64,000 nt of DNA, taken from assembly GCF_009914755.1 (NCBI RefSeq), contig NC_060926.1. The stretch is one strand, 5' to 3'. This document shows, one piece after another, positions 42,650-49,139 of the stretch. The notes under the pieces are model-generated. The model ran no database searches. It was not told where the DNA came from and saw nothing but the letters and a program-made list of their open reading frames with translations. The stretch is from the human T2T-CHM13v2.0 reference genome, Homo sapiens. Position 1 is the first letter of the stretch; each line of letters begins with the position of its first letter. Position numbers and translations under genes: made by a program.

Positions 42650-43640
42650 AGGGGCTTCTGAGACAATTGGCAAATTTTTATTTCTTGACTTCGCTGGTGA
42701 TTTCAAGAGTGGTATTTTGTGTGACTCTCTGTATCTGTTGTATTTTAAAATAAAAGGTTAAGAGTTAAGCAAAAAAGGGATTTTTTTATGTACTATATAT
42801 CCAAATATTCCAGGAGTAGGTCATAGAATTGTCTGAATTCCGGGGTTCAAATGATCACACTAGGATGAAGTCTTTTTCTCATAATTGTTTGACTCTCTCC
42901 ATTGACCTTCCCCACATTATCTTCACTTTTAGTCATTCTCTATCTGTTGGGATGGTGGGCCCTGACAGATCCAAGCTTGTGTGATCTTTAAAGCTGGTGG
43001 CCCCAAAGAAGCCATGGCTATAAACAACCGCTTTGAACCTTCTGGACAAGAATGGACAAGTACAAGAAGGAGAATGAAAGTGAGGAAAATTAAAGGTACT
43101 GATAGAAGTGATGAAAGCTCATGTCTTATAAATATAACACAATTGACTCAAAGGTGTAAAAAGATTAGAAATGAAGAATAGAAACTAACCACAACTTGGT
43201 GCCCACAGGACTTAATCAGTTGTCTGTAGGTTCAGTTGTAAAGGGAACAAGCAAAATTCACAGATTTTGTGTAACATGAGATATGATTAATACTATACCT
43301 AACCATTTGTGACAAGAAAATTTATTTTTTGACTTTTGTGTATACTTTATGGGAATTGTGTATAAAAGTAAGAAAATGTCTATTTAATCAAAAATTATTT
43401 GGGAAAATTAATGAGTGATAGGTGTATAAGGAAGGGTCTCCTAAATAGGACATTCTTACCTTTTAAATCTGAGATTAGCTAGATCAACCGTGCCTCCTCT
43501 TAACCCTTGGAGCTTCTAGTTGCAGCAAAATACTAAGTTTGGTAAATTCAGCATTGTTCTATGAACTCTGTAATAAAAAATTTGTTCCTGACAGTATATA
43601 CTTAACAATCAGGATTCTAGTAAATTCAGATGTTGGTCTT

Positions 43641-43920
43641 CGGAGTTCTCCGGGGCCAGCAGCTGCCTGACCAGGGGCCCGGGGCCACGGGCTCAGCCGA
43701 CGACCATAGGCTCCGTGTCCACCCAGCAGTTTGCAAGTGGCTGCGCCAAGGCGGCAGAAGAGGCACCCGAGGAGGCGCCGGAGGATGCGGCCCGGGCGGC
43801 GGACGAGGCTCAGCTGCTGCACGGTGAGGGCATCTGTAAGTGGTTCAACTTGCGCATGGGATTCGGCTTACTGTCCGTGACTGCCCGCGCCGTGGTCGCG
43901 CTCGACCCGCCAGTGGACGT
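43641..43920. promoter_or_regulatory. CpG-island-like segment imported with the retrocopy
   Basis: About 29 CpGs counted by eye in 280 bp, in an otherwise CpG-depleted window. Confidence 0.6.
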
Positions 43921-44330
43921 CTTTGTGCACCAGAGTAAGCTGCCCATGGAAGGCTTCCGGAGCTTGAAGGAGGGTGAGGCAGTGGAGTTCACCTTTAAGA
44001 AGTCAGCCAAGGGTCTGGAATCCATCCGTGTCACCGGACCTGGTGGGGCGTTCCGTATTGGGAGTGAGAGGTAGCCAAAGGGGAAGAACATGCAAGAAGC
44101 GCAGATCAAAAGACAGGTGCTACAACTGTGGAGGTCTAGACCATCATGCCAAGGAATGCAAGATGCCACCCCAGGCCAAGAAGTGCCACTTCTGCCAGAG
44201 CATCAGTCATATGGTAGCTTCATGTCCACTGAAGGCCCAGCAGGGCCCTAGTGCACAGGGAAAGCCAACCTACTTTCGGGAGGAAGAAGAAATCCACAGC
44301 CCTGCCCTGCTCCCGGAGGCGCAGAATTGA
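43706..44330 (+). pseudogene. LIN28A: Disabled LIN28A CDS
   Basis: Start ATG>ATA (43706-43708). In-frame TAG at codon 123 (44072-44074). +1 A frameshift near 44094. In-frame codon losses (KGD>KD, EEEEE>EEEE). Native stop TGA at 44328-44330. Parent sequence recalled from memory. Confidence 0.95.
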
Positions 44331-45132
44331 GCCACAATGGGTGGAGGCTATTCTTTTGCTATCAGGAAGTTTTGAGGAGCAGGCAGAGTGGAGAAAGTGG
44401 GAATAGGGTACATTGGGGCTAGTTGGCACTGCCATGTTTCTCAGGCTGGGGTTCACACCATCACCCTTTCTTCTCTCTGTTGGGGGAAAGGGTGAGTCAA
44501 AGGAACTCCAACCGTGCTCTGTCCAAATACAAGTGAGGGTTCTGGGGGCAACCAGGAGGTGGGAATCACCCTACAATCTGCATGCTTTATCTGAGGCTCC
44601 ATCCCCAGAATTTCCAGCTTTTGAAAGTGGCCTGGATAGGGAAGTTGTTTTCCTTTAAAGAAGGATATGTAATAATTCCCATGCCAGAGTGAAATGATTA
44701 AGTATAAGACCAGATTCATGGAGCCAAGCCACTGCATCCTGTGGAAGGAAATCTATCAGGAGTAAGGCAGTGTTTTTTTCACATCTTGTATCCATATACC
44801 CACTTTTGGGATAGGGTGCTGGCAACTGTCCCAAGCAATGGGTACTGATGATGGCAAAAAGGATGTTTGGGGGAACAGCTGCAGACCTGCTGCTCCTATG
44901 CTTACCCCTGCCCCATTCTAGGCCAATGTGATTTTATTTATTTGCTCCCTTTGATACTGCACCTTGAGTCCCACTTTCTCCAGGATGCCAACTGAACTAG
45001 CTGTGTGCAAATGATGTATCTTGTGCAGTTTAACTTTTTTTTCCTTAATATAAATATTCTGGTTTTGTATTTTTGTATATTTTAGTCTGAGGCCATCATT
45101 TCCTGCACTGTATTCTCAGGTGCATGAGCAAT

Positions 45133-45140
45133 CTCAGGGA
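45133..45140 (+). promoter_or_regulatory. miR-125/lin-4 8mer seed site (CTCAGGGA) in retrocopy 3'UTR
   Basis: Exact seed match at the position expected for the LIN28A site. Confidence 0.75.
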
Positions 45141-45180
45141 TAAGTCGGCAGCAGCTTGAGTTCTGCACAGCAGGAATACT

Positions 45181-46577
<1,397 letters not shown>

Positions 46578-46644
46578 AAAACTATACTTTTTGTTGTTTT
46601 TGCCACTGTGGAGATTTATTATTTGGAGTGCACAGCCTATTGAA

Positions 46645-46652
46645 CTACCTCA
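46645..46652 (+). promoter_or_regulatory. let-7 8mer seed site (CTACCTCA) in retrocopy 3'UTR
   Basis: 'gcacagcctattgaactacctca'. A second CTACCTCA lies at 47231-47238. Confidence 0.75.
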
Positions 46653-47821
46653 TTTCTACCAATGAGAGCTGGCTTTTCTGCCATAGTGTCCTCTTGAAAC
46701 CCCCTCTGCCTTGAAAATGTTTTATGGGAGACTAGGTTTTAACTGGGTTGCCCCATGACTTGATTGCCTCCTACTGGAAGATTGGGAATTAGTCTAAACA
46801 GTAAATGGTGGTACAGAGAGGCTAGGAGAGACTGGGCCAGGTGAAAGGCCCAGAGAAGAAGCCACGATTAGGTGAGGGGTGACTAATCCTAGGGCACAGG
46901 ACATGCTTTACACCCCAGTTCCATTCTTCACCAGATTAGGCTAGGCCTTCCATGCACGACAGGGTATGTGTGCTCATAAAACTGGAGTTGGTAAGGATAA
47001 GTTTTAAGACCAGTACCCTTATACTTAATCCTGTGCTGTCGAGGGATGGATATATGAAGTAAGGTATCCTTAACCTTTCAAAATTCATGGGTTCCAGGTA
47101 GACACATAAGCAAGGGCTTTGTGGTGCCTGGGACCTGCGTCCCGCCCTGCTGCAGTAGTGGTTAATATTGTCACGGTAGCTAAAGGAGAAAAAGGGGATT
47201 TCGTTTATATGCTGTGAGATCACCGCAAACCTACCTCACTGTGTTGAAACAGGACAAATGCAATAGAACGCATTGGGTGGTGTGTGTCTGATCCTGGGTT
47301 CTTGTCTCCCCTAAATGCTGCCCCCCCCCCAGTTATTGTATTTGTCTGGGCTTTATAGGATTTCACTAAATTGGTGATTGCTAGGTGGCCTAGTTTGTAT
47401 AAATATAATGTATTAGTCTTTCTCCGTGTTCTTTGGGGGTTTTGTTTACAAACTTCTTTTTGTATTGAAAGAAAAATAGCTAAAGCATCTTTGACAGAAG
47501 GTTCTATACCAGGCAAAAAGATCTGAAACATTAGTTTGGGGGGGCCCTCTTCTTAAAGTGGGGATCTTGAACTGTCCTTTGTTTTGTATTCCCCTTCCCC
47601 TATTACCTATTAGACCAGATCTTCTGTCCTAAAAACTTGTCTTCTATCCTGCCCTCTTTTCTGTTCATCCCCCAAAAGAAAACTTACACACCCACACACA
47701 TACACATTTAATGCTTGGAAAGTCTCCACAACTCTTAAACGATGTATGCAAAAATCCTGAAGAAGCTAAGAAAACCCTCCATCCCTTGTTCCCAACTTCC
47801 TGAGTCAAGACCATTACCCAT

Positions 47822-48130
47822 CCTTTCCCTTCCCTTTCCCCTTCCCCTTCCCTTCCCTTCATCTTGCTCTGTTGCCCAGGCTGGAGTGCAGTGGCATGCT
47901 CTTGGCTCACTGCAGCCTCCGCCTCTTGGGTTCAGGTGGTTCTCCTGCCTCAGCCTCCTGAGTGGCTGGGATTACACGCGCCCGCCACACCCAGCTAATT
48001 TTTGTATTTTTAGTGGAGATGGGGTTTCGTCCTGTTGTCCAGGCTGGTCTTAAGCTCCTGACCTCAAGTGATCTGCCCGCCTCAGCCTCCCAGGGTGCTG
48101 GGATTGCAGGTGTGAGCCACCGTGCCGGGC
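47822..48130 (-). mobile_element. AluS, antisense member of the LIN28A 3'UTR inverted Alu pair
   Basis: Antisense Alu body with tail converted to a (CCCTT)n-like tract. Multiple + strand A>G differences from consensus. Confidence 0.93.
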
Positions 48131-48178
48131 TGACCATTTCTTGATGTATTCATGCCAAACACTTAAGACACTGCTGTA

Positions 48179-48500
48179 GCCCGGGCATGGTGGCTCACAC
48201 CTGTGGTCCCAGCACTTTCGCAGGCTGAGGTGGGCGGATCATGTGTTCGGGAGTTCGGGACCATCCTGGCCAGCATGGTGAAACCCCATCTCTGCTAAAA
48301 TACAGAAGATTAGCCAGGTGTGGTGGCGCATGCCTGTGGTCTCAGCTGCTCGGGAGGGAGGCTGGGGCAGGGGAATCGCTTGGGCCAGGCGGTGGAGGGT
48401 AGGCGCATGGAGGTTGCAGTGGGCTGAGTTCGCGCCACCGCACTCCAGCTTGGCAACAGAGCGGGACTCCGTCTCAAAAAAAAAAAAAAAAAAAAAAAAA
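48179..48500 (+). mobile_element. AluS, sense member of the LIN28A 3'UTR inverted Alu pair
   Basis: Alu body plus A25 tail. Perfect 14-bp TSD AAGACACTGCTGTA (48165-48178, 48501-48514). Many A>G differences. Confidence 0.95.
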
Positions 48501-48995
48501 AAGACACTGCTGTATTTTGGATGGCTCAAACCTACTTAATTTTTACTCCTAAAGTAGAGAGATGCAACTGGGGGCCTTCCATGTAGAAATTGAGGTCAGC
48601 AGGCCAAGAAAGAAAATATGAATGTATATACAAGTCACTCAGGAACTTTTATACAGAAACTTATGTCAAAGTGGCCACAAGATTGTTTAATAGGAGACAA
48701 ATGAATATAACTCTATATTTACTGCTAGGAACCAAAGCTTTGTGTACAATCTTGAATTTATGGGGAGGGAGGGTAGGAAAGCCTGTAGCTGTCTGTTCTT
48801 TTCCTGATCCCTTTCCCTCATTCCTGAACTGCAGGAGACTGAGCCCCTTTGGGCTTTGGTGACCCCATCACTGGGGTGTGTTTATTTGATGGTTGATTTT
48901 GCTGTACTGGGTATTTCCTTTCCCATTTTCTAGTCATTTTTTTAACACATGCTGACGCTTCCATTTCCTTCTCCTTTCCCTGGGAAAATACAATG

Positions 48996-49005
48996 AATAA
49001 ATAAA
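48996..49005 (+). terminator. Overlapping AATAAA poly(A) signals of the LIN28A mRNA
   Basis: 'gaataaataaagg' about 25 nt upstream of the A-tail remnant. Confidence 0.85.
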
Positions 49006-49139
49006 GGCTTATTGGTACTCATACTGTAAAAAAAAATTCAGATGTTAAAAAACTTCTAATATATTATAAAACAGTCAAAATTTCCCCCAAGGAGTTAGCA
49101 AGGTCAAACATATGAACATATATACAAATATTTTAGTTA

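What the first reader, a model, noticed from the sequence alone, without database searches (positions are those of the whole stretch)
47822..48500. Fossilised A-to-I hyperediting: the inverted Alu pair was retrotransposed from an ADAR-edited LIN28A mRNA
Seen, by eye against AluS consensus: both oppositely oriented Alus have G where consensus has A on the + (mRNA) strand. Antisense Alu: 47935, 47939, 47964, 48015, 48029, 48054, 48093, 48094, 48106 (e.g. GAGTAGCT>GAGTGGCT, CAAAGTG>CAGGGTG, ATTACAG>ATTGCAG). Sense Alu: 48205, 48206, 48249, 48258, 48273, 48294, 48305, 48308, 48338, 48348, 48365, 48372, 48383, 48384, 48422, 48464 (e.g. TGTAATCC>TGTGGTCC, TGAACC>TGGGCC, CTACT>CTGCT). That is about 25 A>G changes against about one T>C (48439) in the Alu bodies, including AA>GG doublets and several UAG contexts. 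Other Alus in the window show no such excess. Known: the LIN28A 3'UTR inverted Alus form an ADAR substrate, and RT reads inosine as G. Inference: one hyperedited mRNA molecule was written into the germline by L1, giving a single-molecule record of ancestral ADAR activity and an RNA edit made heritable. A few sites (e.g. 48372) may be shared with the parent gene. I cannot tell whether this has been reported before.
Basis: partly seen in the sequence, partly recalled or inferred. Interest (0 to 1): 0.92.

Follow-up and report, generated by a model that had tools for sequence, protein, structure and literature searches.

The report
Edited mRNA fossilised in LIN28A pseudogene
A dead copy of the LIN28A gene carries a burst of A-to-G changes confined to a pair of inverted Alu repeats, including positions listed as edited in human LIN28A RNA today, which likely means an RNA-edited message was reverse-transcribed into the germline and so likely preserves a record of ancient RNA editing.

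Summary
Confirmed and extended. Parent LIN28A (chr1) has A at 24 of the 25 listed positions. At Alu positions where the parent agrees with a 61-Alu panel, the retrocopy has A>G 24/90 against T>C 1/95 (p=9e-8), in both oppositely oriented Alus, always on the mRNA strand. The non-Alu part of the last exon shows no significant asymmetry (28/723 vs 22/835). All 8 LIN28A editing sites listed in a published table are G in the copy (p=7e-5). A second, independent LIN28A retrocopy on chr11 shows the same (13/91 vs 1/95), as do four DHFR retrocopies pooled (38/337 vs 4/315). Controls are flat: two single-Alu TDGF1 copies, 11 genomic inverted Alu pairs, and the parent's own Alus. Against: no 3'-G preference, one PAICS copy is negative, three of four DHFR copies are not significant alone, and no other primate could be checked. 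Best reading (0.9): ADAR-edited mRNA was reverse-transcribed by L1, fixing inosines as G. Ten searches of an open-access library found no report. New variant of a known kind.

The parts
43622..43634 (+). 5' target-site duplication (13 nt) of the LIN28AP1 retrocopy
   Evidence: same 13-mer at 43622 and 49034
43635..49027 (+). LIN28AP1: intronless, near full-length retrocopy of LIN28A mRNA including the whole 3'UTR (longer than the annotated 43633-44527)
   Evidence: matches four parent exons in order, 92-94% outside the Alus
43706..44330 (+). broken LIN28A coding sequence: first codon reads ATA, in-frame TAG at 44072-44074, frameshift after it
   Evidence: sequence, three-frame translation
45180..46584 (.). 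later L1 insertion in two oppositely oriented pieces; absent from the parent (ends approximate)
   Evidence: gap in the parent alignment and L1-like matches in other loci
47822..48130 (-). antisense Alu inherited from the LIN28A 3'UTR (tail 47822-47861 decayed to CCCTT repeats); 8 of 34 conserved A read G on the + strand: 47935, 47939, 47964, 48015, 48054, 48093, 48094, 48106
48131..48178 (+). unique spacer, loop of the predicted hairpin; 1 A>G in 14 A
48179..48500 (+). sense Alu inherited from the LIN28A 3'UTR, flanked by a 14-nt duplication (48165, 48501); 16 of 57 conserved A read G: 48205, 48206, 48249, 48258, 48273, 48294, 48305, 48308, 48338, 48348, 48365, 48383, 48384, 48391, 48422, 48464; plus catalogued site 48356
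49028..49036 (+). poly(A) remnant, downstream of AATAAA at 48996 and 49000
49034..49046 (+). 3' target-site duplication (overlaps the A-run)

Best explanation
The LIN28AP1 retrocopy has G in place of about a quarter of the parent's conserved adenosines inside an inverted Alu pair, on the mRNA strand only, most likely because ADAR had edited that hairpin in one LIN28A mRNA before L1 reverse transcriptase likely copied it into the germline, reading inosine as G. Shown: both Alus were in the parent 3'UTR before the copy; the copy has L1 hallmarks (no introns, poly(A), 13-nt target-site duplication); the A>G excess, its strand, its confinement to the Alu pair, its overlap with listed editing sites, and its recurrence in other retrocopies. 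Predicted: the hairpin. Inferred: that ADAR made the changes in RNA; that all were fixed in one insertion event; that this happened in a germline or early-embryo cell; and an age of roughly 20-35 My.
For: A>G 24/90 vs T>C 1/95 at polarised sites. Same + strand in two oppositely oriented Alus. No significant asymmetry in 2,848 non-Alu columns. 8 of 8 LIN28A editing sites in PMC7942016 Table S9 are parent A / copy G (p=7.5e-5; best other offset of 1,994 scores 3). Independent chr11 copy (own 15-nt duplication, poly(A) 7 nt earlier): 13/91 vs 1/95 on a branch of only 7/1014 background changes. 7 Gs are shared by the two copies (3.5 expected, p=0.024), while they share 0 of 1014 states against parent and outgroup outside the Alus, so these are parallel changes. 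DHFR copies pooled 38/337 vs 4/315 (p=7e-8), with G at 13/27 catalogued vs 73/482 other A (p=1e-4). Flat controls: TDGF1 single-Alu copies 0/80 vs 0/126; 0 of 11 genomic inverted pairs below p=0.1; parent Alus 2 A>G, 1 T>C against the panel. 5' A/U preferred (p=2e-4). LIN28 3'UTR IRAlus are an established reagent (PMC4378195 passages), and hESC lack paraspeckles so such RNA reaches the cytoplasm (PMC7012776 passage).
Against: No 3'-G enrichment, and 5 of 24 sites have a 5' G, against the motif in PMC4365171. The chr11 copy has G at only 3 of the 8 listed sites (p=0.15). The PAICS chr6 copy is negative (3/74 vs 2/60), though much of its antisense Alu is deleted. Three of four DHFR copies are not significant alone at conserved sites (3/85 vs 0/83, 5/84 vs 0/78, 12/84 vs 4/79), and 4 of the 7 raw A>G differences of the chr18 copy are G in most or all older copies, so some may be parent G>A. 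The LIN28A coordinate offset was fitted, not lifted over: two all-A offsets exist in 10 kb. The 8 sites come from short-read data, so mis-mapped pseudogene reads are not excluded. No orthologous copies from other primates were seen.
Confidence: 0.9

Rival explanations
1. The Gs are ancestral: the LIN28A Alus once carried them, and the parent later went back to A by mutation or gene conversion from other Alus.
For: 7 Gs are shared by the two retrocopies. Two positions (47915, 48372) are G in parent and both copies. Several unpolarised A/G differences are plain parent CpG decay.
Against: 17 of the 24 Gs are private to the older copy and 6 of 13 to the younger. The parent keeps private non-consensus bases in both Alus that it shares with the chr11 copy, which a conversion would have erased. 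Its branch since the chr11 copy is 8/1014, far too short for 7 exact reversions. The pattern recurs at DHFR.
Confidence: 0.03
2. The changes arose in DNA after insertion, by a strand-biased process: transcription-coupled asymmetry, ADAR acting on DNA:RNA hybrids, or repeated write-back from edited transcripts of the pseudogene itself.
For: Mechanisms of this kind are proposed in print (PMC10209271 passages). The chr3 DHFR copy has a mild A>G lean outside its Alus too (41/807 vs 19/650, p=0.046). Timing could not be tested across species.
Against: The parent's own Alus, transcribed and edited for longer, show no excess (2 A>G, 1 T>C). 11 genomic inverted pairs are flat. The young chr11 copy has 14% A>G on a 0.7% branch. 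The bias follows the parent mRNA strand at both LIN28A copies.
Confidence: 0.05
3. GC-biased gene conversion, L1 reverse-transcriptase error on a hairpin, or APOBEC3 editing produced the cluster.
For: The changes raise G+C, and a hairpin might stall a reverse transcriptase (inference).
Against: Biased conversion is strand-symmetric, but T>C is 1/95 and T>G 0/95. APOBEC gives G>A on the sense strand (PMC2873906 passages); G>A is 1/105 here. Polymerase error would not be expected to pick out the 8 listed editing sites.
Confidence: 0.02

Closest known systems
ADAR A-to-I hyper-editing of 3'UTR inverted Alus (LIN28, NICN1, DHFR; PMC4378195, PMC7942016, PMC4365171)
   Same: A>G clusters on the transcribed strand in both arms of an inverted Alu pair; the same sites as listed for LIN28A and DHFR RNA.
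   Different: Here the Gs are fixed in genomic DNA of a retrocopy, not transient in RNA; the 3'-G preference is not seen.
APOBEC DNA editing of retrotransposons (PMC2873906; PMC4866542)
   Same: A deaminase leaves a one-time, strand-biased, clustered mutation burst in a reverse-transcribed element that becomes fixed in the genome.
   Different: That is C-to-U on cDNA, read as G>A; this is A>G, needs a duplex, and sits in a host mRNA retrocopy. PMC4866542 has no occurrence of 'ADAR' or 'pseudogene'.
Retroprocessing of edited RNA in plant mitochondria and kinetoplastids; A-to-G hypermutated avian retroviral proviruses (recalled, no call)
   Same: Edited RNA is reverse-transcribed and its edits become DNA-encoded.
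   Different: Those are organellar C-to-U or U-indel edits replacing the gene, or viral genomes; here nuclear ADAR edits in a host 3'UTR are copied to a new locus by L1.
A-to-G DNA substitutions at RNA-edited sites, 'mutational replacement' (PMC10209271)
   Same: Correspondence between editing sites and genomic G.
   Different: That concerns the edited gene itself, by a debated mechanism; here the parent stays A and the G appears only in retrocopies, by ordinary L1 retrotransposition.
Processed pseudogenes from genes with 3'UTR Alus (PMC5199112)
   Same: LIN28A and DHFR are listed with mixed-orientation 3'UTR Alus and processed pseudogenes.
   Different: The main text has no occurrence of 'editing' or 'ADAR'.

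Membership tests
L1-generated processed pseudogene | introns absent, parent exons joined | tested here: met
   four parent exon matches abut in the window
L1-generated processed pseudogene | poly(A) remnant at the parent's 3' end and a target-site duplication | tested here: met
   A-run 49028-49036; 13-nt repeat at 43622 and 49034
ADAR A-to-I footprint | A>G far above T>C on the transcribed strand | tested here: met
   24/90 vs 1/95, p=8.6e-8
ADAR A-to-I footprint | confined to a long RNA duplex | tested here: met
   predicted hairpin, 27 of 30 changed A paired with U (87 of all 91 are, so pairing does not discriminate within the duplex); A>G 40/123 inside vs 28/723 outside
ADAR A-to-I footprint | G depleted 5' of the edited A | tested here: inconclusive
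   window 5/26 with 5' G (p=0.43); chr11 copy 0/26 (p=0.017); 5' A/U vs C/G 18/38 vs 6/52, p=2e-4; motif as stated in PMC4365171
ADAR A-to-I footprint | G enriched 3' of the edited A (a weak preference, not an obligatory feature) | tested here: inconclusive
   no enrichment seen: 9/35 with 3' G vs 15/55 others, p=1.0; 24 sites give little power
ADAR A-to-I footprint | coincides with sites edited in the parent RNA | tested here: met
   8 of 8 listed sites, p=7.5e-5, offset fitted; a full catalogue was not available
Hyper-edited molecule (PMC4365171: A>G at least 5% of length and over 60% of mismatches) | density and share of A>G | tested here: inconclusive
   polarised 24/395 = 6.1% and 24 of 38 changes = 63%; unpolarised 40/555 = 7.2% but 40 of 95 = 42%; the rule was made for reads, not for old copies
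ADAR A-to-I footprint | depends on ADAR activity | not testable with these tools
   needs a retrotransposition assay with and without ADAR1
Single-event (one molecule) origin | all Gs shared by every species holding the insertion | not testable with these tools
   the genome tool holds no relatives of this assembly
APOBEC DNA editing | G>A cluster on the sense strand | tested here: not met
   G>A 1/105

The most novel reading that the evidence does not exclude
Retrocopies of mRNAs with inverted Alus are, genome-wide, an unread archive of single ADAR-edited molecules from ancestral germline or early-embryo cells: editing is a routine heritable mutagen of retrocopies, the same adenosines have been preferred for tens of millions of years, and dated copies let ancient editing levels be measured.
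Probability: 0.6. Interest if true: 0.88.

Novelty: new variant of a known kind. Interest (0 to 1): 0.76.

Why it matters
It is a direct, checkable case of RNA editing becoming heritable DNA in the human lineage by an ordinary route, without the debated write-back mechanisms. It would show that heavily edited IRAlu mRNAs are substrates for L1 in cells that feed the germline, despite nuclear retention and ADAR1's restriction of L1. Dated retrocopies would give editing levels and site preferences from extinct ancestors, which no RNA sample can. Practical side: such copies look older than they are inside the Alus, and they carry G exactly at editing sites, so their reads can mimic editing of the parent (most relevant for the 99.3% identical DHFR copy on chr18).

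Tried and rejected
A genome-wide scan of retrocopies was not possible (the genome can only be searched and cut in stretches); I tested three other genes chosen by hand from PMC5199112 Table S1. PHAX: the Pfam search found only two parent exons, no copy. PAICS: of 6 copies fetched, only chr6 matched the fetched part of the parent 3'UTR as far as the Alus, and it is negative. TDGF1: 2 of 7 copies aligned through the parent's single Alu. DHFR: 4 of 5 copies hold the pair; the fifth ends before it. NANOG, a planned second single-Alu control, was not tested. A crude CpG filter also removes true CA>CG edits, so I used panel polarisation instead. Of 10 other LIN28A 3'UTR copies fetched, 9 lack the Alu pair and served only as panel or outgroup. 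Chen et al. 2008 (EMBO J) is not held, so LIN28 editing in ES cells rests on citing papers and recall. Considered and rejected: APOBEC (wrong direction), GC-biased conversion (asymmetric), parent reversion (branch pattern), one copy derived from the other (distinct duplications and poly(A) sites; 0 of 1014 shared states).

Full report
What the region is. Window 43635-49027 is an intronless copy of LIN28A mRNA: it matches four parent exons on G000:C1 in order, ends in an A-run, and is flanked by a 13-nt duplication at 43622 and 49034. The reading frame is broken, and an L1 fragment absent from the parent sits at about 45180-46584. The two Alus at 47822-48130 (antisense) and 48179-48500 (sense) are present in the parent at the same sites with the same flanking duplications, and absent from an older copy on chr20, so they were inherited from the mRNA. 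The parent segment folds into one long hairpin (-449.7 kcal/mol, 681 nt).

The observation. Raw counts in the Alus are A>G 40/123 and T>C 13/129 (p=1.2e-5), against 28/723 and 22/835 in the rest of the last exon (p=0.19). Raw counts include the parent's own CpG decay, so I polarised with 61 Alus from the window and the fetched loci and kept the 396 positions where at least 80% of the panel and the parent agree. There the copy has A>G 24/90, T>C 1/95, C>T 4/105 and G>A 1/105 (p=8.6e-8); 8/34 in the antisense Alu and 16/57 in the sense Alu. About 1.8 would be expected from the other transitions. No panel Alu exceeds 5/57, and the 12 window Alus have 0-3. A 150-bp profile puts the excess inside the pair. 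One of the 24 (48391) borders an insertion, so its alignment is uncertain.

A second copy. Of 10 other LIN28A 3'UTR copies fetched, one (G000:C11, L013) holds both Alus. It has its own 15-nt duplication and a poly(A) start 7 nt earlier, so it is a separate insertion. It shows A>G 13/91 vs T>C 1/95 (p=5e-4), and 2/314 vs 4/387 outside the Alus. With the chr20 copy as outgroup over 1,014 non-Alu columns, 36 changes are private to the window copy, 7 to chr11, 8 to the parent, 12 are shared by parent and chr11, 4 by parent and window, and 0 by the two copies. So the window copy is older (roughly 20-35 My at a recalled 1-2e-9 per site per year), chr11 is young, and the 7 Gs the copies share inside the Alus (3.5 expected, p=0.024) are best read as parallel changes at favoured sites.

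Overlap with measured editing. PMC7942016 Table S9 lists 9 rows, 8 distinct LIN28A 3'UTR editing sites in hg19 (JAR and JEG-3 cells). Their spacing fits all-A positions at two offsets in the 10-kb parent locus. One places all 8 inside the Alu pair, at window 48015, 48093, 48094, 48273, 48338, 48356, 48384 and 48464, and all 8 are G in the window copy (p=7.5e-5 given 40 of 123; 7 of 7 at conserved sites, p=4.6e-5). Over 1,994 offsets the next best score is 3. The recalled hg19 end of LIN28A also agrees with this offset; no liftover was available. The chr11 copy has G at 3 of 8 (p=0.15). Mis-mapped pseudogene reads could in principle have made these calls; 17% divergence in the Alus makes that unlikely, but it was not tested.

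Sequence context. Changed A have A or T on the 5' side in 18 of 38 cases against 6 of 52 for C or G (p=2e-4). 5' G alone is not significantly depleted in the window copy (5/26) but is in chr11 (0/26, p=0.017), and 3' G is not enriched in either. PMC4365171 gives 5' G depletion and 3' G enrichment as the ADAR motif, so the motif is only partly met.

Generality and controls. The DHFR 3'UTR has an inverted pair kept by four retrocopies. At panel-conserved sites: chr3 18/84 vs 0/75 (p=4e-6), chr2 12/84 vs 4/79, chr6 5/84 vs 0/78, chr18 3/85 vs 0/83; pooled 38/337 vs 4/315 (p=7e-8). The 99.3% identical chr18 copy differs from its parent at 8 Alu positions, 7 of them A>G, though 4 of these are G in most or all older copies and may be parent changes. 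Seven catalogued DHFR sites (offset confirmed exactly by the paper's primers) are each G in at least one copy (7 of 7, p=0.002; pooled 13/27 vs 73/482). Negative or flat: two TDGF1 copies with a single Alu (0/80 vs 0/126; raw 3/59 vs 3/80 and 8/59 vs 7/80); 11 genomic inverted Alu pairs under 1.5 kb apart, some sharing an Alu, lowest p=0.12; the parent's own Alus (2 A>G and 1 T>C among 16 departures from the panel); and one PAICS copy (3/74 vs 2/60), which counts against universality. These genes were hand-picked, not a random sample.

Mechanism. Shown: strand, direction, confinement, recurrence and site overlap. Inferred: ADAR deaminated about a quarter of the hairpin's adenosines in one mRNA; the RNA reached L1 machinery in a cell feeding the germline; reverse transcription read inosine as G (stated for RT in PMC5224506); second-strand synthesis fixed the G:C pairs. 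A review notes that hESC lack paraspeckles, so normally retained RNAs such as LIN28A reach the cytoplasm (PMC7012776). Rivals and their weights are in Rival explanations; together about 0.1.

Literature. Ten full-text searches of Creative Commons PMC papers and bioRxiv showed no title or abstract start describing A-to-I edits fixed in processed pseudogenes. I saw keyword passages only of PMC5199112, PMC4378195, PMC7012776, PMC10209271, PMC3820591, PMC7942016, PMC2873906, PMC4866542, PMC5224506, PMC13034634, PMC6307200, PMC5974252, PMC9148063 and PMC4365171, plus supplementary rows of PMC5199112 (Table S1) and PMC7942016 (Tables S2, S3, S9, S13, S14; four of its files were not searched). A 2017 retrocopy review (PMC5470649) has no occurrence of 'editing', 'edited', 'ADAR' or 'inosine'. 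Most subscription papers and bioRxiv supplements were not searchable, so a prior report remains possible. The closest printed analogue is APOBEC editing fixed in retrotransposons; retroprocessing of edited organellar RNA is recalled.

Verdict. Observation confirmed, interpretation supported (0.9). New variant of a known kind; interest 0.76, because the logic is expected once stated but the footprint is strong, recurrent, not found in the searches, and opens a direct genome-wide and cross-species test.

Noticed in passing
L013 (G000:C11:47111683-47113503, - strand): A second, 5'-truncated LIN28A retrocopy with both Alus and its own A>G excess; the T-tail of its antisense Alu has become a run of G, unexplained.
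   Followed up: partly
L024 (G000:C3, about 96756500-96759950, - strand): The chr3 DHFR retrocopy (by position probably DHFR2, recalled as an expressed retrogene) has 18/84 A>G vs 0/75 T>C in its Alu pair: fixed edits may alter miRNA sites, including the miR-125a-3p site, which is G here.
   Followed up: partly
L023 (G000:C18:26358500-26366500): The 99.3% identical DHFR copy (by position DHFRP1, recalled as polymorphic in humans) has G at 2 of 7 catalogued DHFR editing sites, including chr5:79923430; a possible source of mis-mapped 'edited' reads.
   Followed up: partly
window 45180-46584: L1 insertion inside the retrocopy, in two oppositely oriented pieces, resembling a twin-priming inversion; its subfamily would give a minimum age for the retrocopy.
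   Followed up: no
window 47822-47861 and 48350-48406: The antisense Alu's T-tail has turned into CCCTT repeats; the sense Alu has a 4-nt and a 14-nt insertion relative to parent and chr11 copy.
   Followed up: no
window 43635-49027: The annotated pseudogene span (43633-44527) covers under a fifth of the real insertion; searches with 3'UTR pieces gave 17 and 19 matches genome-wide, while PMC5199112 Table S1 counts 2 LIN28A pseudogenes.
   Followed up: partly
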